A stretch of 64,000 bases of DNA, taken from Polyangia bacterium. GTDB lineage: Bacteria > Myxococcota_A > Polyangia > Palsa-1104 > JAEUJZ01. Each line of letters begins with the position of its first letter. Within the stretch, counting starts at the first letter, position 1. A program made the translations under genes and the position numbers. Below, one piece after another: positions 42,478 to 62,480 of the stretch. Under the pieces are notes generated by a model that had not been told where the DNA came from, did no database searches, and was given only the letters and a program-made list of their open reading frames with translations. Where the stretch lies: positions 126,239-190,238 of the forward strand of contig JBGANQ010000001.1 of the NCBI GenBank assembly GCA_044222245.1. Direction: 5' to 3'.

Positions 42478-43905
42478 TTAGGTGGTTCCGGGCTTGATGA
42501 TGATGTTGCCGAGGGGCGCCGAGTAGTACTGGCGGACGTCGTCGGTGCTGCCGCCGGTGACGGCGTACAGGACGGCGCCGCAGGCGGCGCTCGTGCAGGC
42601 CGCGGTCGGGGTGGCGGCGTTCAGGGCGCCGGTCACCGGATCCCAGTTCATGCGCGCATTGGTCATGATGTCGCCGAAGAAGCCGCCGGGCAGCTTGCCC
42701 GCCCCCTGGACGTACAGGAGGTTGGCGCCACCGGGAGCGCCGTCCGGCCAGCCGCTGCGCTGGTGCGGGTTCTTGATGGTGTCGCCGCTCATCGTCATGA
42801 CCAGGCGATCGCCGAGGAACTTGCCGGAGACCACCGGATCGGGGACGGTGTCGAGGAACGCCTGGAACGACTCCAGCGAGCGCCCGAGCCCGTCGAACAG
42901 ATCGTCGGGCTGACCGGCGAACGCGCCGTGCGGATCGTCAAAGAAGCCGCCGAAGGTGACGTGCGGGGTCAGGCCCAGCTTGAAGGCGTTGGCGGTGACG
43001 ATCAGGGTCTCAACAACCGGCTGCATGCGGTTGTCGGTCGCGACCAGCGGTCCGGCCCAGGTGGCGGCCTGACCGGGCTGAACCCTCAGCTGGGTGCCGA
43101 GGTTCTGCACCACCAGCGACAGCGCGGTCTGCGCGTCCTTGGCGGAGGTCGAGTAGGTGGGACGACCGGCCCAGCGGGTCAGGCCGAGGAGCGCGGTGTA
43201 GTACTGGCTGTACAGGTTCTGGTGCGCCGGGTCACCCAGGCGGTTCATCAGCTGCGAAGCGGCGCTGGCGAACAGGCCGACCATGGCGTTCTGGTCGGTG
43301 ACTGCCGACAGGGCCGGCGAGCCCGGCGAGGCCGGGTTGTAGTTGGGGCTCATGCCGCCGCGCTGGATGCCGATGGCCGGGACCAGCGAGTGCAGCGAGG
43401 TCTGCAGCTGCGCCGCTGCCGACAGCATGCTGACGTTGCCGTTCATCGTCACGGTGGTGACGTTGCCGTTGAAGGCCGGGAAGTTCGAGTGGGCCTGGCT
43501 CTGCCCGCTGACGAACACCGTCCAGGGCTTCTTCTCGCCGAACGCCTTGCCGTCGATGATACGGCCGTAGTAGGGGTTCCCCGAGGGCAGCGTGAGCTGC
43601 TTGAAGCGCGAGGAGATCGGCGCGCCCGTGGTCATGGGGTTGAGCGCCGTGTTGGCGGGATCAAACGTCTTGATGGCGTTCGGCACCGCGACGAGCTGGG
43701 TGGCGCGGCTCATCGCACCGTTGCCCAGGATCAGGTTGACCATCAGGCTCCGGTTGACGGCCGCCTGGGCCAGGGCGCTGCCGCCCATCTTCTCAAGCAT
43801 GTCGAGCGCCCGGGTCGGGCCAAGGCCAAGGGCTGCGCTCGCGGTGAACACGCCGCGTACAAAGTCTCGGCGGGAGGCGCCCCGCAATCCGATGTCTTTT
43901 TTCAT
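42478..43905 (-). CDS. Tat-secreted DUF1552/DUF1501-like protein
   Basis: Twin-arginine signal (SRRDFVRGVFTASAALGLG); about 475 aa; lower-GC codon usage. Confidence 0.45.
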   Translation of the reverse strand: MKKDIGLRGASRRDFVRGVFTASAALGLGPTRALDMLEKMGGSALAQAAVNRSLMVNLILGNGAMSRATQLVAVPNAIKTFDPANTALNPMTTGAPISSRFKQLTLPSGNPYYGRIIDGKAFGEKKPWTVFVSGQSQAHSNFPAFNGNVTTVTMNGNVSMLSAAAQLQTSLHSLVPAIGIQRGGMSPNYNPASPGSPALSAVTDQNAMVGLFASAASQLMNRLGDPAHQNLYSQYYTALLGLTRWAGRPTYSTSAKDAQTALSLVVQNLGTQLRVQPGQAATWAGPLVATDNRMQPVVETLIVTANAFKLGLTPHVTFGGFFDDPHGAFAGQPDDLFDGLGRSLESFQAFLDTVPDPVVSGKFLGDRLVMTMSGDTIKNPHQRSGWPDGAPGGANLLYVQGAGKLPGGFFGDIMTNARMNWDPVTGALNAATPTAACTSAACGAVLYAVTGGSTDDVRQYYSAPLGNIIIKPGTT

Positions 43906-43916
43906 AAGTTTCCTCC

Positions 43917-44618
43917 CTAATCACACATGGCGACGGTGCCGACCATCGATGCCACAGCCAGCCGGCGCCGATCGAGCGCGACGGTGACCATAGCGGTGGC
44001 GTCGTTAATCATGCTTGTGCACGCGGCCAGCTGATTCTGGCTCGGAGTCGCGCCCATCAGGCACGCGAAGCCATCCGCATCGCAGGTATTGTTGTTAAAC
44101 AGCTTGGCGCCGGTGCAGGCGGTGACGGCCGCCGGGTAGGCACCGTCCATGTTGGCCGCCGTGACCCACTCCTCAGCCGCGGCGATCAGCACGTCGTGCA
44201 GGCTGACCAGGCTGCTGGTGGTGTCGCGGATCGTCTCGGGAGCGCGACCGGGGAAGTTCGCCACGCCCCAGATTCCCTGCGCCTTGGTGAGCAGGGCGCC
44301 GGCGCTGTTGGCGGTGGTGTTGGTGACATTGACGCCGCGCGACGACAGGATGGTGCTCAGCCAGCTGAAGCGAAGCTTGCCGCACGAGTGCAGCTTCTCG
44401 CCGACTGCCGGAGCGACCTGGCGACCATCGGTGAAGATGTTGCCAATGTTGTTGAGGATGTCGTCGTGGTTAAGACCGTAATCCGGTCCCTGAGCCTGCT
44501 GACCAGTCTGCAGGGGATCGGCCGGAGTCGGATTTTCGTTACCCGGGTTGTTGCAGAACGAGAGGCCCAGCGCCCCAACTAGGCACAAGCCCCGCAGGAA
44601 AGATTGCTTTTTGCGCAT
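43917..44618 (-). CDS. hypothetical lipoprotein
   Basis: MRKKQSFLRGLCLVGALGLSFC lipobox; Cys-containing; lower GC. Confidence 0.45.
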   Translation of the reverse strand: MRKKQSFLRGLCLVGALGLSFCNNPGNENPTPADPLQTGQQAQGPDYGLNHDDILNNIGNIFTDGRQVAPAVGEKLHSCGKLRFSWLSTILSSRGVNVTNTTANSAGALLTKAQGIWGVANFPGRAPETIRDTTSSLVSLHDVLIAAAEEWVTAANMDGAYPAAVTACTGAKLFNNNTCDADGFACLMGATPSQNQLAACTSMINDATAMVTVALDRRRLAVASMVGTVAMCD

Positions 44619-44642
44619 CTTTATCTTTCTCCTCGCTGTGGC

Positions 44643-45533
44643 CTAGAAGTTGACAAACGAGTCGCTGGTAAACACCGAGCGAACGCTCTTCTTCAGGTTC
44701 CAGTTATTGCCCATAAGTTCAGTCGTCAACTTCGACGCCAGATCAGCCGTGATAGTCGCACCGTCGTCGATGACGTCCGGACGCGACATACCCCAGTTCC
44801 AGATCCGGTTGACCATGCAGGACGCGAACACCGGGTCCGCGGCCACAGCGGCGGCGAACTCCGTGATGTCCTTGGTCGGCTTGCCGTTGCGCCACGCAGT
44901 GGTCTCGCCAGCGGGCAGCCAGTCGGCCAGGGTCGCCAGCGGGCTCCCCGGGATCGGCACCTGGACCTGCGGAGTGGCCTTGGGAACGCCGGCGGCATCG
45001 AAGTTGGCGAACAGCGAGGCCTGGTGATTCATCGTGCCGTGGCAGTTGGCGCAGATGATCGACTTGTCATCCTGGAAGTCGATCTTCGGCTTGGCCGCAT
45101 TCTGATTGCCGGTGATCGAGTTGAACGGCCACGGGTTGACGTACGAGCCACCCGGGTGCTGCTCGGGGGTGCCCGTGGTCTCCGCGGGGAACTTGGTGCA
45201 GGCGAAGGTCTCCTGCACCCAGCGGACGCGGCGGAAGGCCATGTTGGAGAAGAACTGCGCCTGGACGCCGGCGTCGGTGAACACGCCGACCGCGGTGGCG
45301 TTGGGGCAGGTCGCGGTAGCGAAGGTGCCGTTGGTCGCGTTGAAGGTCTGGCAGGTCCCGCTGGTCGCCGTGAGCACCTGGTTGATCGGCTTCTCACCGA
45401 CCACCAGCGACGCCGCGTAGTTAGGAGCGAAGTCCAGGTTGACCGTCGCTCCGTTCACCGTGATGTTGCCACCCATCTTGAACGTATCGCGCCAGAAGTC
45501 GACCATCGCCGAGGCGAACGTCGGCCGACTCAT
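44643..45533 (-). CDS. Planctomycete-type cytochrome-like protein (PSCyt3/DUF1588-like, CxxCH); N-terminus probably extends upstream
   Basis: IICANCHGTMNHQASLFANFDAAG heme-c-type CxxCH motif. In-frame upstream sequence encodes a plausible lipoprotein signal but without a canonical start. Confidence 0.45.
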   Translation of the reverse strand: MSRPTFASAMVDFWRDTFKMGGNITVNGATVNLDFAPNYAASLVVGEKPINQVLTATSGTCQTFNATNGTFATATCPNATAVGVFTDAGVQAQFFSNMAFRRVRWVQETFACTKFPAETTGTPEQHPGGSYVNPWPFNSITGNQNAAKPKIDFQDDKSIICANCHGTMNHQASLFANFDAAGVPKATPQVQVPIPGSPLATLADWLPAGETTAWRNGKPTKDITEFAAAVAADPVFASCMVNRIWNWGMSRPDVIDDGATITADLASKLTTELMGNNWNLKKSVRSVFTSDSFVNF

Positions 45534-46398
45534 ATAGTCGTCGATAAGCTTCTCGTAAGCGGCCTGCTTGCTTGCCGCGTTACGGACGGACTGGATTTCC
45601 GTCAGCGTGGGGTAGTTGCCAGTGAGCTTAAGGGCCGCCGAGCGAAGTGCCTGCTCATAGTCAACAACGGTAGTTACCGTAACTGCCGAGGTCAGGTCCG
45701 GATTGGTACCTGCATCGGCAGTATTCGCACTGCCCGTTCCAGTACAGGCACTTAGCCCAGCTGCCAGTGCCAGCGATAGCGTTACATTGCCGGAGGAAGG
45801 GGGGGTCGGGGAGCGTCCGGGTTATTGGGACGGTGCCGTCGGTGACGGGGTGAGCCGGGGTGCTCGGTTGGCGGACGCTACGGGACGTTTGCGGAACGGT
45901 AGATGGACCGTCTCCTCTCCTCTCCCGGCTGCTGCCCAACCCTTGGCCAACTCATCCGCTGCTCTGCATCGCCTAACAGCTCGTGCCGCTGCGACGCTGG
46001 GAGCGATCGGCTGCTTTCAGCGCGACGCCGACTCATCGCGGCAAGTTGAGGCGGCCGAATATTCGCGCGTGGACTACTTCCCATTCCTCGCCAACGCCCG
46101 CGAGAGCAGACGCCAGCCCCTGCTCTAAGCGCTGGCGCAGCTCGGCGCGGACCGCCGGATCATCTGGCAGAGGCGGAGGCACTGGCCCAAGGGTGCCTTC
46201 CTGATCGGGGTCAACTGGCCGTGCTGACTTGCGGAGTTTGCGAGACTTGGGAGCGGACATGCGCGACCTCTCTTGAATGGCTACAATGGTCAGGGCGGGC
46301 CATCGGCGAAAGACTCTACCATGCAAGCCTCATGGCCCCTTGGCGATCGTGTCTTCCCTTCTCTCGGTTTTGGCATAGTATCCAGGCAGGAATCGCCC

Positions 46399-46551
46399 AT
46401 GGAGCGCACGAAGAAAAAGCGTCTGCAGTCGCGCGGCTGGAAGGTCGGCACCGCGGCGGACTTCCTCGATCTGGCGCCTGAGGAAGCCTTGCTCATTGAC
46501 ATCAAGGCGCGGCTGGCGGTGGCGCTGGCATCCGGCCAGCCCGCCACCTAG
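46399..46551 (+). CDS. small HTH protein resembling HigA/XRE-type antitoxin (orphan)
   Basis: MERTKKKRLQSRGWKVGTAADFLDLAPEEALLIDIKARLAVAL; motif recalled from type II TA antitoxins; no adjacent toxin gene found. Confidence 0.3.
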   Translation: MERTKKKRLQSRGWKVGTAADFLDLAPEEALLIDIKARLAVALASGQPAT

Positions 46552-46804
46552 AACCCTACCCTGGCGGCAGCCGCGGCCGTTTTTCCCACTCCCGTTCCCA
46601 ACAATTACCTTGTTTCGGGTTGTTTCACTTTTATTCCAAAGTATTCACTTGTTTCAGCTTCTATCGTTCCGCGGAGGCCAACATGGACCAGATATGGACC
46701 ACGGAACGGACGCCGGCGACACTCAGCGACGGGGAGCTCGCGATCTTGCCGTCACATTGCCTAATGTTTGTTTCATAGCGCCTCCGACTTGTTATAGGGA
46801 AGAC

Positions 46805-47962
46805 CTACTTCTCTCCCGCCGCCCAAGTTGTCACCTCAGTGGTAAACCTAGTGATATCTGCCGCCACTGAGTACTTAAAGGGATGATTTGGCGTCCCGCC
46901 CTGTGCCTGGGGAATCGCCTGCAAGAGCAGGATGCTCTTGTTGGGTGTAGTCTTGTTGATACGGCCGAGCGAGCTGATACAGAAGCTCATCAGCTTGGCC
47001 ATGTCAGTGCTCGTCGAGAGCGTCATGTCATACGCGCTCGTCGCAGCGCCGTTCCTGCCGCCGTGGCAGGTCGCCGCGCAGCCCTGAAGATCCTTGACCA
47101 GCGCCGGATTGAAGTCCTTGAAGTCCTTGCAGGCGACCATCACAGGCTGAACCTGGGACTTCTCCAGCGTCTCAAAGGCGATGCCGATGCGGGTGTTGGG
47201 ATCATTGGTCGGGGCGTTGGTGAGGAGCACCGTGCCGCCGCCGATCGTCATGCTCCCATTGGCCGGTACCGACAGGTCGACAATGCCCAGACTGTCGGCC
47301 GGATCGGCGAAGGAAGCGGTGTTAGTGATGAAGTAAAACTTCGGGTGCTTGATGTGAATGCCGGTAGTCGGCCCGGCGGTGAGCGTCAGCTTCGAAACCC
47401 GGTAGAAGTTGCTCGAGTCCGGGGCCAGGTTGAACGTGATGTTCGCCTGCGGGTCGTTGATGGGATCTTCATTCCCAAAGTTCATATTGAATTCGCCGGT
47501 GGTGATCGGCGCCGTCGGCAACAACGCAGACTTCTGCATCCCCGGCGTGTTCGACGGACGGGCGGCAATCTCCGCCTCGATCCAGCCCTGCACGGCAGCA
47601 TACTGCTCCGGCGTGAAGGCGGGGCCGGTGTGCGGGCCCTTGGTGAGCAGCACGCTCTGCACCGCGGCCGGCACGTTGATGAACTTGCCCTGCTCGTACG
47701 TCGTGATCGACTTGTACTCGTCGCCGGTAGCCAGGAACGTCGCGACGGAGCCCTGCGCGCGGTCGTGGCAGTTGGCGCAGCTGTTCACGAGCTCCGGCTT
47801 GGCCAGGGTGTCAAAGATCGCCGTGGGGGACACGTCCGGCTGGGCCATGTTGTTCGTGTCCCCACCACCGCAGCTTGGACCGAGGGCCAGGGTCAGCAGC
47901 GCTCCCCCGAAGCTGGAGACGCGGAGTCCAGTACTTAGTTTTTTTAATCGAACTAGTTTCAT
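46805..47962 (-). CDS. di-heme c-type cytochrome-like lipoprotein
   Basis: Start at MKLVRLKK; lipobox LALGPSCGG. Two CxxCH motifs (NSCANCHD, GCAATCHGG). Lower GC. Confidence 0.5.
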   Translation of the reverse strand: MKLVRLKKLSTGLRVSSFGGALLTLALGPSCGGGDTNNMAQPDVSPTAIFDTLAKPELVNSCANCHDRAQGSVATFLATGDEYKSITTYEQGKFINVPAAVQSVLLTKGPHTGPAFTPEQYAAVQGWIEAEIAARPSNTPGMQKSALLPTAPITTGEFNMNFGNEDPINDPQANITFNLAPDSSNFYRVSKLTLTAGPTTGIHIKHPKFYFITNTASFADPADSLGIVDLSVPANGSMTIGGGTVLLTNAPTNDPNTRIGIAFETLEKSQVQPVMVACKDFKDFNPALVKDLQGCAATCHGGRNGAATSAYDMTLSTSTDMAKLMSFCISSLGRINKTTPNKSILLLQAIPQAQGGTPNHPFKYSVAADITRFTTEVTTWAAGEK

Positions 47963-48425
47963 CGCGGTTCCCCTTGCCTTCCTGTCACCGGCTGCGGTGA
48001 CAGCGGGTCTACATGTCATTCCCGGGTGCACAGATCCCCGAAGGGGCAATTCCAATGACGCCCCGACTTGGAATTTTCCTCCGCAACGCAGCAAAAGTTG
48101 CGAAAAATGTTTTCCTCACTCGGCAAAAATCGCACTTGTCGGATAGTACGTAGCCCTTTTTGCCGTTTTTATGGACTCCTTTGTAGGTACAGAGCCGACT
48201 CTTTTGCAGCATCTCGCACGCGATGGCGATCGGGCGATCAACCGATGGACCGACAACTCAAAAGATCGGCTTCACCGACGACAAATGCGATCGTGCAGAC
48301 GGCCCTGTCGCACTGTCCCAGACAGAGACCTACCGCTTTTGGGAAGGCTCTTGCGTGCAGAAAAGTGGGCACAAGTCAGCAGTACTTCTGACGATTCCCA
48401 ATTACTGACAGGAAACCGCCGCCGA

Positions 48426-49409
48426 CTACTCGCGCTGCCAGCTCGGCTCGTCGTCTATACAGGCCAGGGTCTCTTGCAGAGCCGCCAGCTCATCGACCCA
48501 GTGCTGGGTCGTAGGGAAGTGCGGGAAAGTGCGCGGGAAGATCGGATCGGCGAAGCGGCGAGCGACCCAGGACGCGTAGTGGATGAGGCGCAGCCCGCGC
48601 AGCGGCTCGATCAGACGCAGGGTGCGGCGATCGAAGGCGCGCATCTGCTCGTAGCCGGAGAGCAGCAGCTCGCGCTGGCGCACCGCTTCGGCGTCGCGCC
48701 CGCGGATCACTATCCACACGTCCTGCACCGCCGGACCGCTCAGCAGATCGTCGAAATCGAGGAAGAACGGCCGGCTGTCCTGCCACAGCAGGTTCCCCAG
48801 GTGACAGTCGCCGTGCAGCCGGTGCAGCGGCACCTCGCGCCACAGCGGCTCGGCGGCGGCGATAAGGGCCCGCGCGGTCTGCTCGTAGCGGGCGCGCAGC
48901 GACTCGGCGATAAACCCGCTGTGGAGCAGCGCCAAAAGCGCCGGCTCCCCGTAGGCGCGCGGCGCGAGCAGCGGTCGCTCGGGCGCCGGCCGCGCCGCCG
49001 CCACGTTGTGCAGCCGCCCGAGGAGCCGCCCGATCTGCAGCAGCTGCGGGTCCGAGAGCTCCTGCAGGCAGCGGCCGACCACGCGCGGGAACACCGCGAA
49101 CATGATTCCCGACGGCAGGGCCTGCAGCGTCCCGCCGTCCGACAGGGTCAGCGGGGCGACCACCGGCACCTCGGCCAGCTCGAGCTCGGCGAGCAGCGCG
49201 TGCTCCTGCAGGATCGCCGCGCGCGACCAGCGCCCGGGCCGGTAGAACTTGGCGACGACCCGCCGGTCCCCTTCGAGCTCGAGGTCGTAGACCCGGTTCT
49301 CCAGGCTGTTGAGGGTGTAGCAGCGGCCGGTCGCGCGGGCGCCACCGCCGAGCGCCGCCTCCACCGCATCGAGCAGCGCGTCGGGGGTCAGCGAGAAAAA
49401 GTCTTGCAC
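48426..49409 (-). CDS. stress-response Ser/Thr kinase SrkA/YihE/RdoA-like (aminoglycoside phosphotransferase fold)
   Basis: LHGDCHLGNLLW...FFLDFDD (HGDxHxGN...DFDD catalytic/metal-binding motifs of the YihE family). Confidence 0.65.
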   Translation of the reverse strand: MQDFFSLTPDALLDAVEAALGGGARATGRCYTLNSLENRVYDLELEGDRRVVAKFYRPGRWSRAAILQEHALLAELELAEVPVVAPLTLSDGGTLQALPSGIMFAVFPRVVGRCLQELSDPQLLQIGRLLGRLHNVAAARPAPERPLLAPRAYGEPALLALLHSGFIAESLRARYEQTARALIAAAEPLWREVPLHRLHGDCHLGNLLWQDSRPFFLDFDDLLSGPAVQDVWIVIRGRDAEAVRQRELLLSGYEQMRAFDRRTLRLIEPLRGLRLIHYASWVARRFADPIFPRTFPHFPTTQHWVDELAALQETLACIDDEPSWQRE

Positions 49410-49550
49410 CCCGGCACAATAACAGACTCCCCCTGCCGGCAGCAGCCGCCCGGCGCCGCGGCCCTCCGCGACCGCCGTCGCCGGGTCAATGGCGGGCAGC
49501 GCCTTGATATAGCCCGAGTTTCTTGCTCCATTTCTTGGTAAATTGATGTA

Positions 49551-50564
49551 GTGGGGCTCCTACAATTTACTACCGCTATACTGCTGGCGCTGCTGCTCGG
49601 CGGACTCGCGGTGACCGTGCTCCGGCGGCGGCTGCTGCCGGGACGGTCGGGGCGGCGCGGGCTCTTCTCGCGCTGCCCGGAGCCGCCGGTCGCCCCCGCC
49701 CCGACAGTCAGCCGGGGGCTGAGCGTCGTCGTCACCGAGCCCGGCCAGCACCAGGTGCGCTTTGCCTCGGTGGGCGGGGCGGCGGCGGCCAAGGCGGCGC
49801 TGCTGCGGCTATGCGCCCGGCTGCGTCAGAGCGACCCGGAGATCAGCGACATCCGCAGCGGCAGCCATCGCAGCGCCCAGAGCGCCATCGGCGGCGTGCT
49901 GCACGGACCGCCCGGCTGCGGCAAGACCCTGCTCGCGCGCGCCCTGGCCGGGGAGCTCAACCTGCCGCTTTACACCCTCTCGGGCGCCGAGCTGACGGAG
50001 CTGGCCCCGGCGGCCTTCGCGGCGCCGCTGCGCGAGCTGTTCGCGACGGCGGCGCTGCGCGCCCCGAGCCTCATCTTCATCGACAGCCTCGATGCCCTTA
50101 ACAGCCGCGCCGCCCGCCCTGCGGCGGCGAGCGGCGCCGGCTGCGACAGCGGCGCCCCGGTGGTGCTGCAGCTGGTCAGCCTGCTCGACGAGCTGTCGCG
50201 CGAGCAGGCCGGGGTGGTGGTGCTGGGGGCGGCGCGCCGCCTGGAGGGAGTCGACGAGGCGCTGGTCCGTCCCGAGCGGCTCGGGCGGGCGGTGGCCCTG
50301 GCTCTGCCCGAGCTGCGCGAGCGCGCCGAGATCATCGCCCTGCTCGGCCGCGCCCACCCGGAGCTCGACAACCTGGACGTGCTCGCGCTGGCCACCCGCA
50401 CCCAGGGGTATAGCGGCGCCGACCTCGGCCGGCTGCTCGGCCGCCTCGCCCGGCTCGTCTCGGAGCGCCCGCAGCCGGGGGGCCCGACCTCGATCGAGAC
50501 CGTAGAGCTCGAGCGCGCCATCGCCGAGTCGCCGCCGCCCACCGGCTCCCCCAAGGCAAGCTAG
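49551..50564 (+). CDS. membrane-anchored AAA-family ATPase with degenerate Walker B
   Basis: N-terminal TM (LLQFTTAILLALLLGGLAV), VRFASVGG, Walker A GPPGCGKT, Walker B LIFIDSLDAL (DS instead of DE), SRH-like GYSGADL. Confidence 0.7.
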   Translation: MGLLQFTTAILLALLLGGLAVTVLRRRLLPGRSGRRGLFSRCPEPPVAPAPTVSRGLSVVVTEPGQHQVRFASVGGAAAAKAALLRLCARLRQSDPEISDIRSGSHRSAQSAIGGVLHGPPGCGKTLLARALAGELNLPLYTLSGAELTELAPAAFAAPLRELFATAALRAPSLIFIDSLDALNSRAARPAAASGAGCDSGAPVVLQLVSLLDELSREQAGVVVLGAARRLEGVDEALVRPERLGRAVALALPELRERAEIIALLGRAHPELDNLDVLALATRTQGYSGADLGRLLGRLARLVSERPQPGGPTSIETVELERAIAESPPPTGSPKAS

Positions 50565-57943: not shown

Positions 57944-58142
57944 CGCCCGGCGCCGCCGGCCGCGCGGCCGGCTCGCGCAACACCGCAAGCCTCCACCCGG
58001 GAGCCGCGGGCGGGCCCCCCGGCCGGCGGCTTGTACCTATGCCCGCAGCGAGGGCGGAAGTGCGCATCCGCAGGGGTGATTGACGTTAGTCAACCCGGCG
58101 CGAGCGAACTTATAGTTAAATCAATTAAGAGAGGTAAATTAC

Positions 58143-61004
58143 ATGAAAAAATATCCATATATTACCAGCCTGTCGGGTACCTCGCCGGTACTCGACGGGG
58201 CGCGGCCGACCACCGCGTCCGCCCGCTGGCGCGTCTCGGTCCTCGCGGCGGCCGGGCTGTGCGTCCTTGGGCTGTCGGGCCTGGGCTGCGTCGCCGATGT
58301 GCCAGCGACCACCCCCAGCCAGGGCGTGGTGGCGCTGTTCAACCCGGGCGCCTCGCCGCCCGTGGTGCCGTCGCCGACCGATCTGGTGCGGGTCAACGGC
58401 ACCCTGCAGATCCCGGTCGACCCGGCCGAGGCGACCAACGGCGCGCTCAAGACCTTCAATGACTACCTGCGCGGGCTCGACGGCTTCCCCCCGGACTCGG
58501 TGGCAACCACCACGTTCTCGGGCGCCATCGACCCGAGCTCGCTCGGCGAAGGGGTGGTGATCTACGACGCCACCACCAGCACCGAGCTCGCGCCGCCCGA
58601 GGCGGTGGCCAGCCTGGAGCCGACCTCGGCGAACAAGGAGCTTTTGATCAGCACCAAGGCGCGCTGGCGCAACGGCCACACCTACTTCGTGGGCCTGTTC
58701 AGCTGGCAGGAGGCGGGGGCCGTGCGCGGCGTCCGCAGCGCCGACGCCAAGGCGGTGCTCACCGACAGCGCCTTTGCGCTGCTGCGCAGCCAGACGCCGC
58801 TTTTTGCCAAGTGCCAGGACGCGGCCAATCCGGACTGTGTTTGTAAGAACCTCGCCGACAGCGCCTGTCACGCGGTGGTCGATGGCATCAGCAACGTGCA
58901 GGCGCAGCAGCTGGAGGCGGCGCGCCTGGGCATCGGGCCGATCATCGACAAGGTGCTCGGAATCAGGGGCCGCAAGCGCAGCGAGCTGGTGATGGCCTGG
59001 AGCTTCACCATCAGCCAGCGCTCGTTCGCCACCTTCGACGCCGGCCGCAGCCAGGTGCCGTTCCCCTCCAACCTCCTTCTGTCCAACCAGGGCATGGGCA
59101 GCCCGACGGCCGACGCCACGGTCAACATCCCGATCCTGCCCACCGACGACCCGCAGACCAAGGCGCTCAAGGGCGGGCTCAACACCCTGGACGGCTTTAG
59201 CACCACCGGCTCGGTGCAGTTCCCCATCGACAGCGCCGTCAGCGGCGGACTGCCGGTCGACATCGACGCCAAGAGCGTGGTCGCCGGCAAGACGGCGCTT
59301 TTGGTCAACCTGAGCCTGCCGACCAGCCAGCCGAGCTACCAGGCGCAGCCGCTGCGGGCGCTGCTCGACGTGCCCAACAAGATCTCGGGCTTCGCCGGTC
59401 AGATCTATGTCACGCCCAAGAGCCCGCTGCTCAGCGACCGCGTGACCTATGCCGCCGTGTTGACCACCAACATTAAGGACGCCAACGGCGGGCGGCTGGC
59501 GCCGTCTCCGGTGACCCTGCTTATCACCCAGGGGTCGCCGCTGGTCATCGATGGCAAGTCGGCGGTGCCGACGATTCCGCTGGCCCAGGCGATGCAGCTG
59601 GAGGCGCTGCGTCAGTCGGTCTCGCCGCTGGTCGACTCCTTGGGTCTGTCGCCGACGAGCGTGGCGGCGCTGACGGTCTACCGGACGCAGTCGATCATCA
59701 GCCCGATACAAAAGCTGATTGCCGGCACCGCCCAGCTGGCACCGGTCATCCCGAGCACGGTGACGATCACCACCACGGTGCCCATCGGGACGCCGATCGG
59801 CGCCATCCTGCACGGCACCATGACGGTGCGGCGGGTCGTCGATCTGCGCGGCCCGTTCAATCCCACCGCGCGGCTCACGCCCACCCCGGCCAGCAATGAC
59901 GTGATTCCGTTCCTCATGACCCTGCCCAATCCGGCGCTGGCGCCGCCGGGCGGAGCGCCGGTGGTGATCGTCCAGCACGGCCTGACCCGCTGGCGCGGCG
60001 ACGCCCTGGCGATCGCCGGCACGCTGGCCAGCAAGGGGCTGGCGATGATCGCCATCGATGCCATCTATCACGGCGGCCGCGTCGTCTGCCTGAGCAATGC
60101 CGACTGCGCCTCCGGCGTAACCTGCACCCAGCCGGCCCCGGTCAACGGGGTGCCGCAGGCCGGCAGCTGCGCCGGCGCTTACCTGGCAGCGGCCGGGGCG
60201 ACGGCGCTGCCCGGCAGCCCGGACCTGCTCCCGGATCCGAGCCTGCCGAGCCGCGACTTCGTCAACCTCGCAAACCCCTTCGCGCAGCGCGACAACTACC
60301 GCCAGCACACCCTGGATCTGTTCCAGCTGGTGCGTGTGATCAAGGACACAGCCGCCGGCAGCCTGAGCGCGCAGATCAGCGCCAACGCCACGCTGGCGCC
60401 GATAAACTCCGCCAAGATCGGCTACCTCGGACAGTCCCTGGGCGCGCTCATGGGAACGAGCTTCCTGGCGCTGTCACCGAGCGTCAACCTCGGCGTCCTC
60501 AATGTCGGGGGTGGCAACCTGGTCGGCATCTTCACCGACCCCGCCTCGAGCCTGTCGGCGGGCGCGGCAGCGCAGCTCGGGGTGACGCCGGGCACACCGG
60601 CGTACTTTGGTCTGCTGGAGAACTTCCACTGGATCATCGATCCGGCGGATCCGATTAACTTCGCCCGCTACGTGCGCGCTCCCGATGCCAAGCTCATGCC
60701 CAATCGTACGGCTCCGGCGCGGGTGATCTTGCAGGAGGCGGGGATGGACACGGTGATCACCAACCAGTTCACGCTGGCCCTGGGGCTGGAGCTCGGGCTG
60801 CCGGTGGACATGATGCAGCACCTGCAGGGAATCGATCAGGAGGGCGCGGCCAACGCAGCTCCGGTGTCGACCTTCTTCCCCACCGCCGACCACGGCGCCA
60901 TCTTCAACTTCACGAACATGGCGCTGACGCTGCAGATCCAGAATCAGGCCGCGACGTATCTGTCCACCGGCCTTGCTGGCGCGCCCCCCACCGTCACCCC
61001 GTAG
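58143..61004 (+). CDS. VolA-like lipoprotein lipase (bacterial virulence-factor lipase N-terminal domain plus alpha/beta hydrolase)
   Basis: Lipobox LGLSGLGC, about 600-aa N-terminal beta-rich region, C-terminal GYLGQSLGA (GxSxG) hydrolase. AT-rich 5' end. Confidence 0.6.
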   Translation: MKKYPYITSLSGTSPVLDGARPTTASARWRVSVLAAAGLCVLGLSGLGCVADVPATTPSQGVVALFNPGASPPVVPSPTDLVRVNGTLQIPVDPAEATNGALKTFNDYLRGLDGFPPDSVATTTFSGAIDPSSLGEGVVIYDATTSTELAPPEAVASLEPTSANKELLISTKARWRNGHTYFVGLFSWQEAGAVRGVRSADAKAVLTDSAFALLRSQTPLFAKCQDAANPDCVCKNLADSACHAVVDGISNVQAQQLEAARLGIGPIIDKVLGIRGRKRSELVMAWSFTISQRSFATFDAGRSQVPFPSNLLLSNQGMGSPTADATVNIPILPTDDPQTKALKGGLNTLDGFSTTGSVQFPIDSAVSGGLPVDIDAKSVVAGKTALLVNLSLPTSQPSYQAQPLRALLDVPNKISGFAGQIYVTPKSPLLSDRVTYAAVLTTNIKDANGGRLAPSPVTLLITQGSPLVIDGKSAVPTIPLAQAMQLEALRQSVSPLVDSLGLSPTSVAALTVYRTQSIISPIQKLIAGTAQLAPVIPSTVTITTTVPIGTPIGAILHGTMTVRRVVDLRGPFNPTARLTPTPASNDVIPFLMTLPNPALAPPGGAPVVIVQHGLTRWRGDALAIAGTLASKGLAMIAIDAIYHGGRVVCLSNADCASGVTCTQPAPVNGVPQAGSCAGAYLAAAGATALPGSPDLLPDPSLPSRDFVNLANPFAQRDNYRQHTLDLFQLVRVIKDTAAGSLSAQISANATLAPINSAKIGYLGQSLGALMGTSFLALSPSVNLGVLNVGGGNLVGIFTDPASSLSAGAAAQLGVTPGTPAYFGLLENFHWIIDPADPINFARYVRAPDAKLMPNRTAPARVILQEAGMDTVITNQFTLALGLELGLPVDMMQHLQGIDQEGAANAAPVSTFFPTADHGAIFNFTNMALTLQIQNQAATYLSTGLAGAPPTVTP

Positions 61005-61037
61005 CCCCACAGATCCCCTTGCACCGGAGCCCTTTTC

Positions 61038-62480
61038 ATGGAGCGCAGTATGCGAGCTATCTTTTTTCCCTCTGAAGCGGCAGTAGCAGCGGGCCGCCCG
61101 GGCGCCACTACCGGCGTCCTCGCCGCGGGGCTTCTGACCCTGGGGCTGGGGCTCGGGCTTGTGCCCGCGACGGCCCAGGCGGCCGGGTATGTCAACTCGG
61201 AGCAGTCGCCGGCCGGGGTCGGCCTGGCCGGCGCGATGACGGCGCGCGCGGACGACGCCTCGGCCATCTTCTACAACCCGGCGGGTCTGGGATTCCAAAG
61301 CGGACTGTCGATTGTGGCCGGGATCACTCTGGCCAGCCCGCAGCAGAGCGTGACCAGCTTCGCCCCGGGCTCTGATCCGGGGGGCAGCATCTTCAAGGCG
61401 CAGAGCGCCAACTTCGTGCTGCCTACGATCTACGCAGCGGCGCGGGTGTCCGATCAGATCGCGCTCGGGCTGGGCGTGTTCGTCCATCACGGCGGCGGCG
61501 CCGACTTCCAGAACCCCGATGATCCGCGGCCGTTCCCGGGGCGCTTCGCGGCGCTGCGCACCAACATCCAGAGCCTCACCTTCAACCCCACCCTGAGCAT
61601 CCGCATCATCCCGGAGGTCTCGGTGGGCGGCGGGCTGGATATCGAGGTCGGCTCGCTGGAGATCGTCCGCTCGCTGGCGCTCGGCAGCGCCGAGGGACGG
61701 ATCGCTCTTGCGGGCAGCAGCCTGGCGTTTGGCGGCAACATCGGCGCCCTGGTGCGGCTGCTCGATGGCCGGCTGAACTTCGGACTGAGCTTCCGCTCGG
61801 CGCTCAACCTGCGCTTTGACTCCCTCAAGGTCGGCGCGACGGCGCCGGACGGAGTCTCGCTGCTGTTCCCCTACACCCAGGGCGCGACCAACCTGCCGAC
61901 GCCGCACACGATCAGCCTGGGCATCGCCGGCAAGCCGGCGCGCTGGCTGACCATCAGCGTCGATGCCATCAGCTCGCTGTGGTCGGCGGTGCATGATCAG
62001 CGGATCACGCTCTCGGACGGGGGCAGCTTGACCCAGACTTCGGTGATTCCGCGCAGCTGGCGCGACGCCTACAGCGGCCGCATCGGCGTCGAGCTGGATC
62101 TGGGACCGGTGCTGGAGGCCAAGACCAAGTTCTGGCCGAAGGTGCGGGTCGGCTTCGGCTACGATCAGTCGCCGGTGCCGCCGAGCACCCTGGACACGTC
62201 GGTGCCGGACGCGGATCGCTTCTTCCCGTCGCTTGGCGTCTCGCTCGGTTATCGCGGGCTAGGTAGCATCGAGCTCGGTTACACGGCGATTCTGTTCCGC
62301 TCGCAGCCTTCGGAGAACCCGAACCTGCCGCTCACCTACGACACGACGATCCATGTGTTCGGGGCGGCAATCAACCTGCAGCTGGAGCGGGTGTTCGGCA
62401 AGCGCAGCGCGGCCTACTCGGCGCGGCTGCTGGATCGGTCGCCGGCGGTGCCGGTGGAAGAGGCGGCGCCGGCGCACTAG
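61038..62480 (+). CDS. FadL/TodX-family outer-membrane channel (3)
   Basis: Signal peptide ...ATAQAAGY, ADDASAIFYNPAGLGF (NPAGL), beta-barrel alternation, C-terminal ...F. Confidence 0.65.
   Translation: MERSMRAIFFPSEAAVAAGRPGATTGVLAAGLLTLGLGLGLVPATAQAAGYVNSEQSPAGVGLAGAMTARADDASAIFYNPAGLGFQSGLSIVAGITLASPQQSVTSFAPGSDPGGSIFKAQSANFVLPTIYAAARVSDQIALGLGVFVHHGGGADFQNPDDPRPFPGRFAALRTNIQSLTFNPTLSIRIIPEVSVGGGLDIEVGSLEIVRSLALGSAEGRIALAGSSLAFGGNIGALVRLLDGRLNFGLSFRSALNLRFDSLKVGATAPDGVSLLFPYTQGATNLPTPHTISLGIAGKPARWLTISVDAISSLWSAVHDQRITLSDGGSLTQTSVIPRSWRDAYSGRIGVELDLGPVLEAKTKFWPKVRVGFGYDQSPVPPSTLDTSVPDADRFFPSLGVSLGYRGLGSIELGYTAILFRSQPSENPNLPLTYDTTIHVFGAAINLQLERVFGKRSAAYSARLLDRSPAVPVEEAAPAH

What the first reader, a model, noticed from the sequence alone, without database searches (positions are those of the whole stretch)
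42478..48420. Lower-GC island with Planctomycete-type CxxCH cytochrome-like lipoproteins and Tat-secreted partner
From about 42.4 to 48.4 kb the GC content and codon usage drop visibly (A/T-ending codons, AT-rich intergenic tracts at 46.55-46.80 kb and 47.97-48.42 kb). The island encodes a Tat-signal protein of the DUF1552/DUF1501 type and two lipoproteins, one with ICANCHG (PSCyt3/DUF1588-like). Beyond an orphan antitoxin-like HTH gene lies a further lipoprotein with two CxxCH motifs (SCANCHD, CAATCHGG). PSCyt and DUF1552 gene pairs are widespread but functionally uncharacterised. Here the usually fused multidomain partner appears split into separately lipidated pieces. No integrase or tRNA marks the borders in this window.
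Basis: partly seen in the sequence, partly recalled or inferred. Interest (0 to 1): 0.6.

Follow-up and report, generated by a model that had tools for sequence, protein, structure and literature searches.

The report
Myxobacterial cytochrome-like lipoprotein operon, one gene interrupted
The low-GC stretch is a four-gene operon for exported cytochrome-like lipoproteins and a Tat-exported enzyme-like protein, conserved in one class of myxobacteria, of unknown function and only distantly related to the 'planctomycete cytochrome' modules; in this genome a 958-base insertion left by an integrating mobile element has cut one of its genes.

Summary
The GC dip is real: 0.637 over 42478-47962 against 0.715 for the rest of the window. 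It is not a bordered island. About half comes from amino-acid composition (GC1 0.53-0.62), part from lower GC3 in three genes (0.82 against 0.92), and the rest from an insertion and an AT-rich upstream region.

The genes form one minus-strand operon, A-B-C-D.
- A is a 385-aa lipoprotein with two invariant CxxCH motifs.
- B is a 387-aa ICANCHG lipoprotein.
- C is a 233-aa lipoprotein.
- D is a 475-aa Tat-exported protein.

The order A-B-C-D was the same in all 38 related genome loci wherever the contig reached far enough. All 38 are Myxococcota, nearly all labelled Polyangia or its families.

Profile comparisons tie A's first domain to PSCyt1 and B to the C-terminal part of DUF1592/DUF1588 proteins. 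C matches nothing. D is not a DUF1552 or DUF1501 member by HMM. It is a separate family of 387 cluster representatives, and its predicted fold resembles the alkaline-phosphatase superfamily only weakly.

Gene B is broken here. A 958-bp insertion (45792-46749), flanked by 12-bp direct repeats, separates its first nine codons from the rest. The 'orphan antitoxin' is a fragment without an HTH domain inside that insertion. Closely related strains have the site empty.

Function is unknown. I favour an extracytoplasmic haem-linked metalloenzyme complex.

The parts
46805..47962 (-). Gene A: 385-aa predicted lipoprotein. Layout is a helical CxxCH domain (SCANCH, PSCyt1-like), a beta-sandwich, and a second helical CxxCH domain (CAATCH).
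   Evidence: ORF; the ATG at 47962 matches the 385-aa homologues. In 23 homologues both CxxCH motifs, H111, M313 and H360 are invariant and the lipobox Cys is nearly invariant. AlphaFold model has pLDDT 84.7. hhalign to PSCyt1 N-termini gives 90-92%. No Pfam or NCBIfam family and no significant PDB fold match.
46750..46776 (-). Detached 5' end of gene B: ATG plus 8 codons (MKQTLGNVT). It includes the left copy of the 12-bp repeat (46750-46761).
   Evidence: Sequence read. It is identical to the N-terminus of intact B in P0059, P0060 and P0063. It is contiguous with the gene body in L007, L008 and L010.
45792..46749 (.). 958-bp insertion inside gene B, GC 0.632. I read it as a decayed remnant of an integrative element.
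   Evidence: Absent from L007, L008 and L010, whose sequences join window 45791 to 46750 with a 12-bp overlap. Present in three independent JGI assemblies, L001-L003. Logan contigs L004 and L005 end exactly at 45791. A relative with about 90% DNA identity (L009) carries other DNA at the same site and shares both ends of the insertion. No Rfam, PHROG or PADLOC match.
45780..45791 (.). Right copy of the 12-bp direct repeat: CGTTACATTGCC on the + strand, GGCAATGTAACG on the gene strand.
   Evidence: the repeat finder family D7, spacing 970 bp, 11 of 12 identical. The single copy in L007 is covered by both alignment blocks.
44643..45779 (-). Body of gene B (codons 10-387). It has a lipobox (LSAC), a PSCyt2-like N-terminal segment, a PSCyt3/DUF1588-like domain with ICANCH, and a PSD-like C-terminus. 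In this genome it has no usable start codon.
   Evidence: Translation. Pfam: PSCyt2 36.6 bits (cut-off 29.8), PSCyt3 24.4 (cut-off 27), PSD1 18.6. At least 884 homologue clusters. CANCH is invariant in 25 of 25 sequences. hhalign 96.2% to a DUF1592 protein and 83% to a DUF1549/1553 protein. The first in-frame start is codon 98.
46400..46551 (+). 50-codon fragment of a HigA-like antitoxin gene (N-terminal 36 residues only, no HTH), inside the insertion.
   Evidence: tblastn to HTH regulators on cyanobacterial plasmids, E 2e-5. The Nostoc homologue is 116 aa and follows a RelE/ParE toxin gene. No HTH Pfam hit. The codon-position GC pattern is atypical for coding sequence.
43917..44618 (-). Gene C: 233-aa predicted lipoprotein of unknown fold, with an invariant H-x-C-x-K motif and a Cys-rich C-terminal half.
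   Evidence: ORF. It lies between B and D in every locus. Alignment of 19 sequences. No Pfam or NCBIfam hit in any member. No hhalign match to canonical PSCyt/PSD proteins.
42478..43905 (-). Gene D: 475-aa Tat-exported protein, the founding example here of a family without a Pfam model. Invariant residues are H139, Q168, D324-P-H326, G-D375-T-x-K378, W386 and D388.
   Evidence: Twin-arginine SRRDF motif and TAT_signal hits in 12 of 32 members. Alignment. Model has pLDDT 82 and pTM 0.80. The 49 top Foldseek PDB hits are all alkaline-phosphatase-superfamily enzymes, but weak: E 0.03-2, TM mostly 0.1-0.3. 387 representatives in the exhaustive search. The same invariant residues are kept in a stand-alone lipoprotein subfamily.
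47963..48425 (.). AT-rich (GC 0.546) intergenic region upstream of gene A; presumed promoter region of the operon.
   Evidence: Composition. No sigma-70 consensus and no Rfam match. The role is inferred from position only.

Best explanation
The region is a chromosomal copy of a four-gene operon (A-B-C-D, minus strand) found so far only in Myxococcota, chiefly class Polyangia. It is a divergent, disaggregated relative of the PSCyt/PSD-plus-Tat-partner modules known from Planctomycetes, Verrucomicrobia and others.

Shown here:
- All four products carry export signals: three lipoprotein signals and one Tat signal.
- A carries a PSCyt1-like CxxCH domain and a second CxxCH domain.
- B corresponds to the C-terminal DUF1588/DUF1585-like part of DUF1592-family proteins and has one invariant CxxCH.
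- D stands where DUF1552 stands in canonical pairs. It belongs to a separate family with a conserved His/Asp/Lys cluster, and its predicted fold resembles alkaline-phosphatase-superfamily enzymes only weakly.

Inferred mechanism (about 35% confidence):
- D is the catalytic metalloprotein. It folds and is loaded with its cofactor in the cytoplasm and is exported by Tat.
- A and B are c-type haem carriers anchored to a membrane. They pass electrons to or from D's reaction.
- C is an adaptor.
- Together they form an extracytoplasmic redox-linked enzyme complex acting on an unknown substrate.

In this genome B is disrupted. A 958-bp integrase-less remnant of an integrative element sits between codons 9 and 10, at a 12-bp core that other elements also use in a related genome. 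B can therefore only be made without its signal peptide, if at all.

The GC dip has four additive sources: the family's Thr/Asn/Ser/Ala-rich composition, lower GC3 in A-C, the foreign insertion, and the AT-rich upstream region.
For: Operon conservation.
- The order A-B-C-D was the same in all 38 genome loci wherever the flank allowed, and in three further metagenome contigs. All 38 are Myxococcota (Polyangium, Sandaracinus, Minicystis, Chondromyces, Byssovorax, Kofleriaceae).
- No other gene is consistently linked to the cassette.

Homology.
- A's N-terminal domain matches PSCyt1 at 90-92%.
- B matches a DUF1592 protein at 96% over 271 columns and Pfam PSCyt2 at 36.6 bits.
- All three CxxCH motifs are invariant.

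D.
- Tat motif and a confident model.
- The top 49 Foldseek hits all belong to the alkaline-phosphatase superfamily.
- The conserved H/DPH/GDTxK/WxD residues are retained even in stand-alone lipoprotein paralogues. This points to an active site carried by D alone.

Redox hint.
- Cytochrome c and cytochrome b genes follow a canonical DUF1501 module and a canonical DUF1552 module on two plasmids.
- Kamneva et al. proposed electron transport for the DUF1501/PSCyt modules (PMC3542564).

Insertion.
- The site is empty in L007, L008 and L010 and filled in the window and L001-L003, with 12-bp repeats.
- The same site in L009/L059 is occupied by at least 8 kb of genes without Pfam matches, plus an XRE gene and a 385-bp segment that shares both ends with the window's insertion.
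- In L018 a paralogous B is split, at a different site, by an element that carries a tyrosine integrase and has 16-bp repeats. L020 is split at about the same codon, but its repeats were not confirmed.

Composition.
Against: - No experiment or solved structure links any of the four families to a function.
- Haem attachment is inferred from motifs only. Foldseek found no cytochrome fold for A, and Pfam cytochrome models give only faint hits in a few members.
- D's fold similarity is weak (best E 0.03, TM mostly 0.1-0.3). D lacks the canonical first-strand Asp and nucleophile of alkaline-phosphatase-type enzymes (reading).
- Its relation to DUF1501 and DUF1552 is not significant by hhalign.
- C has no detectable relatives of known function.
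- The window contains no integrase, and the ends of the insertion have no inverted repeats, so its mode of insertion is inferred from other loci.
- A-C have GC3 about 0.10 below the host in this lineage only, which the model does not fully explain.
Confidence: 0.6

Rival explanations
1. The 42.4-48.4 kb stretch is a horizontally acquired genomic island, brought in as a unit from a lower-GC donor.
For: GC is 0.637 against 0.715. GC3 is 0.82 in A, B and C, against 0.90-0.94 in neighbouring genes. The flanking genes are shared only with the two closest relatives, and in other genomes the cassette has different neighbours. Some genomes carry two paralogous cassettes.
Against: There is no integrase, tRNA or direct repeat at the borders. 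The cassette has the same neighbours in L009 and L010 at 87-90% DNA identity, so any transfer predates those lineages. D has host-like GC3 of 0.92. About half of the dip is GC1, that is, protein composition. In 29 other genomes the cassette is on average only 0.02 below its flanks. The family was found only in Myxococcota.
Confidence: 0.2
2. The cassette is a non-redox hydrolytic or binding system. D is an alkaline-phosphatase-superfamily hydrolase (a phospho- or sulfo-ester type reaction). The CxxCH motifs of A and B are structural or metal-binding rather than haem sites, and A, B and C present or bind the substrate.
For: D's only structural neighbours are sulfatases, phosphatases and related hydrolases. 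Stand-alone D-like lipoproteins exist without A-C. A has no detectable cytochrome fold in the PDB and a central beta-sandwich of a kind common in binding modules. PSCyt genes often lie near sulfatase and carbohydrate-binding genes in Verrucomicrobia (PMC5615132).
Against: All three CxxCH motifs, and candidate axial ligands (H111, M313, H360 in A), are invariant across the families. Tat export suggests a cofactor loaded in the cytoplasm. Cytochrome c and b genes sit next to canonical modules. D lacks the usual nucleophile and first metal-binding Asp of the hydrolases.
Confidence: 0.25
3. The 958-bp insertion is a non-autonomous transposon (MITE-like) that created a 12-bp target-site duplication. 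It is not a remnant of an integrase-type element.
For: Direct repeats of 12 bp flank the insertion. The insertion has no recombinase gene. It is small, and the site is polymorphic among close strains.
Against: The ends have no terminal inverted repeats. The two repeat copies differ at one base. The same core in a relative with about 90% DNA identity is occupied by different, much larger DNA arranged in tandem, which is typical of repeated site-specific integration.
Confidence: 0.15

Closest known systems
DUF1592/DUF1588/DUF1585 (PSD3-5, PSCyt3, PSD2) proteins paired with DUF1552 (PF07586) Tat proteins
   Same: B aligns to the C-terminal 300 residues of a Sphingobium DUF1592-family protein (96%) and to the C-termini of Chondrinema and Planctomyces ones (90% and 67%). 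It has the CxxCH of PSCyt3. A Tat-signal protein of about 450-475 aa lies downstream in the same operon. Canonical partners can also be split over two or three genes.
   Different: B is only 387 aa and has no DUF1587, DUF1592 or DUF1595 domains by HMM. An extra lipoprotein, C, lies between B and the Tat protein. The Tat protein is not DUF1552: no Pfam hit in 42 members and hhalign 22%. All three partner proteins are lipoproteins.
DUF1501 (PF07394) plus PSCyt1/PSCyt2/PSD1 (DUF1549/DUF1553) modules of Planctomycetes and Verrucomicrobia, including the four-gene clusters described by Kamneva et al. 2012 (PMC3542564)
   Same: A's first domain is PSCyt1-like (90-92%). B's N-terminal segment passes the PSCyt2 threshold and matches a DUF1549/1553 protein at 83%. 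A four-gene layout with a Tat enzyme-like protein, a signal-peptide protein of unknown type and two CxxCH proteins parallels the most complex clusters described there. D and DUF1501 share the Tat signal and a first strand followed by G-G-x-S (hhalign 35%).
   Different: D gives no DUF1501 HMM hit. Its C-terminal motifs can be laid alongside those of DUF1501 by eye (DDPH against WDxH, GDTxKxP against GEFGRTP) but the alignment has no statistical support. B's C-terminal part matches the DUF1592 lineage much better than the DUF1553 lineage. Taxon is Myxococcota.
Alkaline-phosphatase superfamily enzymes (sulfatases, alkaline phosphatase, YejM/PbgA, cofactor-independent phosphoglycerate mutase)
   Same: They are the only structural neighbours of the D model. 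D has Asp/His motifs placed after beta-strands, as in that superfamily's metal sites (reading).
   Different: The similarity is weak (E at least 0.03, TM mostly 0.1-0.3). There is no sequence match to any solved structure. D has no first-strand Asp and no Ser/Thr/formylglycine nucleophile motif, and it has a large helical insert at residues about 205-310.
Tyrosine-integrase integrative elements that insert into protein-coding genes (as in L018)
   Same: Short direct repeats flank the insert. The site is empty in close relatives. The same core is reused by other elements in a related genome. The cargo includes toxin-antitoxin and XRE-type genes or their fragments.
   Different: The window's copy has no integrase and no intact gene. 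It appears to be a deletion remnant and may no longer be able to excise.

Membership tests
PSCyt3 / DUF1588 (PF07627) group, i.e. DUF1592-family proteins | PSCyt3 domain with a CxxCH motif | tested here: met
   The Pfam PSCyt3 score is 24.4-25.1 bits, just under the 27-bit cut-off. Several homologues have the hit on record. hhalign to a PGAP-annotated DUF1592 protein gives 96.2%, E 2e-9, over 271 columns. CANCH is invariant in 25 of 25 sequences.
PSCyt3 / DUF1588 (PF07627) group, i.e. DUF1592-family proteins | N-terminal DUF1587, DUF1592 and DUF1595 (PSD4, PSD3, PSD5) domains in the same polypeptide | tested here: not met
   B has no such Pfam hits at E up to 1, whether read as 296 or 392 residues. 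The family is uniformly about 360-450 aa.
PSCyt3 / DUF1588 (PF07627) group, i.e. DUF1592-family proteins | A DUF1552 gene immediately downstream | tested here: not met
   Gene C and then gene D lie downstream. D does not hit DUF1552.
PSCyt2 / DUF1549 (PF07583) | Match to the Pfam model above its gathering score | tested here: met
   36.6 bits against a cut-off of 29.8, but covering only model positions 15-83 of 209. hhalign gives 83% to a DUF1549/DUF1553 protein over 93 columns.
DUF1552 (PF07586) | Match of the Tat protein D to the family profile | tested here: not met
   No hit at E up to 5 in 32 members, nor at E up to 1 in 10 distant members. hhalign against three PGAP-annotated DUF1552 proteins gives 22% over 56 columns. 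The exhaustive profile search returned only 387 proteins.
DUF1501 (PF07394) | Match of the Tat protein D to the family profile | tested here: not met
   No Pfam hit. hhalign against six PGAP-annotated DUF1501 proteins gives 35%, E 4e-4, limited to the Tat signal and first strand. The forced full-length alignment is not significant.
Alkaline-phosphatase superfamily fold | Significant structural superposition with members | tested here: inconclusive
Tat-exported proteins | Twin-arginine motif S/T-R-R-x-F-L-K followed by a hydrophobic stretch and an A-x-A site | tested here: met
   The sequence reads ASRRDFVRGVFTASAALGLG...SALA. R12 and R13 are invariant. Pfam TAT_signal hits 12 of 32 members.
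PSCyt1 / planctomycete cytochrome C (PF07635) | Profile match of a CxxCH domain | tested here: inconclusive
   No Pfam hit in 23 members. hhalign of A's N-terminal domain gives 90-92% to the N-terminus of a Singulisphaera 'PSD1 and planctomycete cytochrome C' protein, and 49-63% to three other such proteins. A's C-terminal CxxCH domain shows no match.
c-type cytochromes | Covalent haem bound at CxxCH | not testable with these tools
   The motifs are present and invariant. Only faint hits to Cytochrome_CBB3 and CCP_MauG in 3-4 members. No cytochrome fold match.
Bacterial lipoproteins | Signal peptide ending in a lipobox [LVI][ASTVI][GAS]C | tested here: met
   B has LSAC. A has GPSC in the window but mostly xxGC or xxAC in homologues, with the Cys nearly invariant. 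C has LSFC in the window and mostly xxGC or xxAC in homologues. This was judged by eye; no dedicated predictor was run.
Genomic island | Compositional deviation from the host | tested here: met
   GC 0.637 against 0.715, and GC3 0.82 against 0.92 for A-C. D is host-like and half of the effect is GC1.
Genomic island | Mobility genes, tRNA or repeats at the borders, and presence/absence among close relatives | tested here: not met
   No tRNA. The neighbours are an esterase, an S55 peptidase, an APH-family kinase and an AAA protein. The cassette and these flanks are present in L009 and L010.
Site-specific integrative element (for the 958-bp insertion) | Direct repeats at both junctions and an empty site with one copy in relatives | tested here: met
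   12-bp repeats, 11 of 12 identical. L007, L008 and L010 have one copy and no insert.
Site-specific integrative element (for the 958-bp insertion) | An integrase gene in the element | tested here: not met
   No ORF with a recombinase match lies in 45792-46749. An integrase is present only in the unrelated element of L018.
Type II antitoxin (HigA-like HTH) | HTH DNA-binding domain and an adjacent toxin gene | tested here: not met
   Only residues 1-36 of a 116-aa homologue are matched. There is no HTH Pfam hit and no toxin remnant.

The most novel reading that the evidence does not exclude
A-B-C-D is a minimal, fully disaggregated version of the enigmatic PSCyt/DUF1501/DUF1552-type systems. 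D founds a third, previously unmodelled family of Tat-exported partner enzymes: an alkaline-phosphatase-like scaffold with a conserved His/Asp/Lys centre. Its chemistry is coupled to two lipid-anchored c-type haem proteins, which would make it a new class of extracytoplasmic haem-dependent metalloenzyme. A less likely reading is also not excluded: the 5' end of gene B serves as a dedicated attachment site, so that integration and excision of mobile elements switch the system off and on.
Probability: 0.25. Interest if true: 0.7.

Novelty: new variant of a known kind. Interest (0 to 1): 0.5.

Why it matters
PSCyt/PSD proteins and their DUF1501 or DUF1552 partners are among the most multiplied gene modules in Planctomycetes and Verrucomicrobia. 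They have had no known function since their description in 2004 (PMC3542564, PMC5615132).

The myxobacterial cassette offers a smaller system in which each module is a separate protein of 230-475 aa. It occurs in one or two copies per genome. It is present in cultured strains: Chondromyces apiculatus DSM 436 (L042) and Minicystis rosea DSM 24000 (L044). That makes biochemical and genetic dissection more practical.

Three of the four families (A, C, D) have no Pfam or NCBIfam model, so the cassette is invisible to routine annotation.

Natural strains with and without the insertion in gene B are a ready-made comparison for the role of B.

Tried and rejected
- Rfam (E up to 1) on 45.5-48.6 kb gave nothing.
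- PHROGs and PADLOC on the insertion ORFs and on the L009 element genes gave nothing useful.
- The sigma-70 and terminator scans gave no more than expected from shuffles.
- tblastn of B and of the 75-aa ORF from the insertion against plasmids found no match.
- An exact-pattern scan for the conserved end of the insertion found 0 matches in metagenome contigs and 0 in viral contigs. The metagenome collection evidently lacks the samples that do carry it.
- Profile searches of A and D against PDB sequences matched only a Tat signal and noise.
- A motif scan of the loci for canonical DUF1552 or DUF1501 genes found none. Genuine examples were instead retrieved from annotated plasmids, using consensus sequences I wrote from memory as bait. 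The baits themselves are not evidence; only the annotated hits were used.
- A survey of recurrent neighbours of the cassette found only generic myxobacterial kinases and response regulators, and DUF3570 in 7 loci. It gave no functional lead.
- I considered that the missing start of B was an assembly error. I rejected this because three independent assemblies share the same sequence.
- I considered that the 97-aa and 92-aa ORFs in the insertion are real genes. I rejected this on codon-position GC and the absence of any family match.
- I considered relaxed selection on the B body. pN/pS is 0.43, against 0.08 for A and 0 for D, when compared with the intact allele. The counts (8 and 6 substitutions) are too small to conclude anything.

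Full report
**1. Composition**

The window averages 0.715 GC. One-kb windows outside the region have a standard deviation of 0.027 and a minimum of 0.63. Between about 43.7 and 48.0 kb, 1-kb windows fall to 0.58-0.63, and 42478-47962 as a whole is 0.637. The dip is real.

Per gene the picture is mixed:
- GC3 is 0.82-0.83 for the three lipoprotein genes, against 0.90-0.94 for neighbouring genes.
- GC3 of the Tat-protein gene is host-like at 0.92.
- GC1 is 0.53-0.62 in all four genes, against about 0.72 elsewhere. This reflects protein composition rich in Thr, Asn, Ser and Ala.

In 29 homologous cassettes from other genomes, the cassette averages 0.66 GC against 0.68 in its flanks, and its GC3 is usually host-like. 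So only part of the dip is particular to this lineage.

**2. Gene map**

All relevant genes are on the minus strand.
- A: 46805-47962, 385 aa.
- B: body at 44643-45779, plus a detached start (section 4).
- C: 43917-44618, 233 aa.
- D: 42478-43905, 475 aa.

D begins MKKDIGLRGASRRDFVRG..., a twin-arginine signal. B and C have lipoboxes, and A has one that is atypical here but normal in its homologues.

Pfam and NCBIfam give nothing for A, C or D. B, read through its whole open frame, hits PSCyt2 at 36.6 bits (cut-off 29.8, partial coverage), PSCyt3 at 24.4 bits (cut-off 27) and PSD1 at 18.6 bits.

**3. The cassette is a conserved unit**

Searching D's family in one genome per species gave 38 loci. 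All are Myxococcota, nearly all labelled Polyangia or its families. They include Chondromyces apiculatus DSM 436, Minicystis rosea DSM 24000, and Sandaracinus, Byssovorax, Polyangium and Kofleriaceae MAGs.

tblastn with the four proteins showed the order A-B-C-D, on one strand, in every locus with enough flank. Some genomes hold two paralogous cassettes. Three metagenome contigs reached through B homologues show the same four genes.

No other gene family is consistently linked. The recurrent neighbours are generic kinases and response regulators, and DUF3570 appears in 7 loci.

The window's flanking genes (esterase, S55 peptidase, APH-family kinase, AAA protein, penicillin amidase) are shared only with the two nearest relatives, L009 and L010, at 87-90% DNA identity. 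The cassette is therefore not a recent arrival in this strain. It has no tRNA gene and no mobility gene at its borders.

**4. Gene B is interrupted in this genome**

The open frame of B runs upstream of its first ATG and encodes a lipobox (...VTLSLALAAGLSAC). No ATG, GTG or TTG lies in frame before codon 98.

The closest homologue, P0059 (98% identical), starts MKQTLGNVTLSLALAAGLSAC. Those first nine codons lie in the window at 46776-46750, just 28 bp downstream of A's stop codon.

Contigs carrying P0059 (L007, L008) align to window 42610-45791 and 46750-49951, with 12 bases shared by both blocks. L010 does the same. So 45792-46749 (958 bp) is an insertion flanked by the direct repeat GGCAATGT(A/G)ACG (family D7).

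Three independent JGI assemblies (L001-L003) carry the insertion at 99.7-99.9% identity, with small indels in C-runs inside it. Two Logan contigs end exactly at 45791. That is what a graph branch between filled and empty alleles would produce.

The right-hand repeat reads GTA where L009 has GTG, so the B body has no start codon here. It has no stop or frameshift either. Divergence from the intact allele is low, with 8 non-synonymous and 6 synonymous changes.

DNA on the A side of the insertion is 97.8% identical to L007, against 99.3% on the B-D side. This suggests a recombination boundary at the site.

**5. What the insertion is**

It matches no Rfam family and has no terminal inverted repeats. 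No PHROG or PADLOC family matches its ORFs.

Its first 36 residues are 50% identical to the N-terminus of a 116-aa HTH regulator that follows a RelE/ParE toxin gene on a Nostoc plasmid. The HTH part is missing, and there is no toxin remnant. Its codon-position GC, and that of the 97-aa ORF, does not look like coding sequence.

In L009/L059, an activated-sludge MAG with about 90% DNA identity, the same core occurs twice, 397 bp apart. The segment between the two copies shares both ends with the window's insertion. Upstream of the left copy lie an XRE-type HTH gene and at least 8 kb of genes with no Pfam match, where gene A would be expected.

Independently, a paralogous B in L018 is split at codon about 125 by a 3.8-kb element. 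That element carries a tyrosine integrase (Pfam 78 bits), a GNAT protein preceded by a small ORF, and a double-HTH protein, and it is flanked by 16-bp direct repeats. L020 is split at about the same codon, but my repeat search did not recover the repeats there.

I therefore read the window's insertion as a deletion remnant of an integrase-type element at an attachment site in codons 6-9 of B. A MITE-like transposon with a 12-bp target duplication is the weaker alternative.

**6. Relationship to known families**

Genuine canonical examples were retrieved from annotated plasmids. They are six DUF1501 proteins, three DUF1552 proteins, and their PSCyt/PSD partners.
- B aligns to a Sphingobium DUF1592-family protein at 96.2% probability (E 2e-9) over 271 columns. 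It aligns to the C-termini of Chondrinema and Planctomyces DUF1592 proteins at 90% and 67%, and to the DUF1549 region of a DUF1549/1553 protein at 83%.
- A's N-terminal CxxCH domain aligns to the PSCyt1 N-terminus of a Singulisphaera protein at 90-92%, and to three others at 49-63%. Its C-terminal CxxCH domain resembles only A's own first domain, and weakly (42%).
- C matches nothing.
- D gives 35% against DUF1501, limited to the Tat signal and the first strand. It gives 22% against DUF1552 over 56 columns.
- No Pfam hit appears in 32 close and 10 distant D-family members. The exhaustive profile search found only 387 cluster representatives. That is too few for the profile to be detecting the large DUF1501 and DUF1552 families; their size is my own knowledge, not a result here.

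D is thus a separate family standing in DUF1552's position. The canonical partners are themselves sometimes split. Planctomyces has separate DUF1587 and DUF1592 genes. Sphingobium has two hypothetical genes, a 536-aa DUF1592 gene and a DUF1552 gene.

**7. Structures and conserved residues**

The D model is confident (pLDDT 82, pTM 0.80). Its 49 top Foldseek PDB hits are all alkaline-phosphatase-superfamily enzymes, at weak scores: E 0.03-2 and TM mostly 0.1-0.3. Invariant residues are H139, Q168, D324-P-H326, G-D375-T-x-K378, W386 and D388.

A stand-alone subfamily of 400-440 aa has a lipoprotein signal instead of Tat. It lacks the helical insert at about residues 215-300, and it is not adjacent to A-C. 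It keeps all these residues. This points to an active centre intrinsic to D.

The A model (pLDDT 84.7) is a helical domain, a beta-sandwich and a second helical domain. It has no significant PDB neighbour. Both CxxCH motifs and H111, M313 and H360 are invariant. B's CANCH and several Cys, Arg and Glu residues are invariant. C has an invariant H-x-C-x-K motif.

**8. Mechanism**

Shown:
- Four exported proteins are encoded by a strictly conserved operon.
- Three invariant CxxCH motifs lie on two lipoproteins.
- The Tat protein has a conserved His/Asp/Lys cluster.

Inferred (about 35% confidence):
- D is a metalloenzyme loaded in the cytoplasm.
- A and B are haem carriers that couple D's reaction to electron transfer.
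- C is an adaptor.

Two canonical modules on plasmids are followed by cytochrome c and cytochrome b genes. Kamneva et al. reached a similar electron-transport guess for the DUF1501 modules. He et al. note that nothing is known of their function.

The main rival is a purely hydrolytic or binding system in which the CxxCH motifs do not bind haem.

**9. Verdict**

It is wrong on three points:
- D is not a DUF1552 or DUF1501 member.
- The stretch is not a bordered island.
- The split architecture is not unique to this window.

The cassette is a new variant of a known but unexplained kind of system. Interest is moderate.

Noticed in passing
L018 2502-6350 (same split position in L020): A paralogous copy of gene B is split at codon about 125 (FWRNT) by a 3.8-kb element. 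The element carries a tyrosine integrase, a small ORF followed by a GNAT acetyltransferase (a possible toxin-antitoxin pair) and a double-HTH XRE protein. In L018 it is flanked by 16-bp direct repeats CGTTCTGGCGCAACAC; the repeats were not confirmed in L020. Gene B is thus hit by mobile elements at two different sites in different genomes.
   Followed up: partly
L009 5400-6134; L059 1-8128: In a relative with about 90% DNA identity, the same core at the start of gene B occurs twice, 397 bp apart. Upstream lie an XRE-type HTH gene and at least 8 kb of genes with no Pfam match, where gene A would be expected. This looks like tandem occupation of one attachment site. No integrase lies within the available contig.
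   Followed up: partly
window 46750-49951 versus 42610-45791: Identity to the uninterrupted allele (L007) is 97.8% on the gene A side of the insertion and 99.3% on the B-D side (synonymous divergence 0.068 against 0.012-0.022). A recombination boundary seems to coincide with the insertion site.
   Followed up: partly
window 46595-46665: Inside the AT-rich end of the insertion are two imperfect 32-nt direct repeats (72% identical, 39 nt apart), each containing TTGTTTC (GAAACA on the gene strand). Their role is unknown; they might be protein-binding sites of the former element.
   Followed up: no
window 45805 and 45846: Single-base indels in C-runs distinguish otherwise near-identical assemblies (L001, L002) within the insertion. 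This fits non-coding DNA evolving neutrally, or homopolymer sequencing error.
   Followed up: no
proteins P0246, P0252, P0254, P0263, P0271, P0283, P0295; loci L061-L064: A stand-alone subfamily of D-like proteins (400-440 aa) has a lipoprotein signal instead of a Tat signal and no helical insert. It keeps all of D's invariant residues. These genes are not next to A, B or C. One lies beside thioredoxin and peroxiredoxin-like genes, another beside a fasciclin-domain gene.
   Followed up: partly
L054 6338-7566 and L058 5577-6688: On two unrelated plasmids (Saccharobesus, Sphingobium), a canonical DUF1501 module and a canonical DUF1552 module are each followed by a cytochrome c gene and a cytochrome b/b6-domain gene. 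This hints that these modules connect to membrane electron transfer.
   Followed up: no
window 58116-62480: A 962-aa protein with a bacterial Ig-like (Big_5) domain is followed directly by a FadL/TodX-type outer-membrane transporter gene. Both have somewhat low GC1. This may be a surface uptake pair, unrelated to the finding.
   Followed up: no
window 46033-46326 (minus strand): A 97-codon ORF in the insertion has no family match, and its codon-position GC (GC1 0.74, GC3 0.63) is unlike host genes. It is probably not a gene, or is a decayed foreign one.
   Followed up: partly
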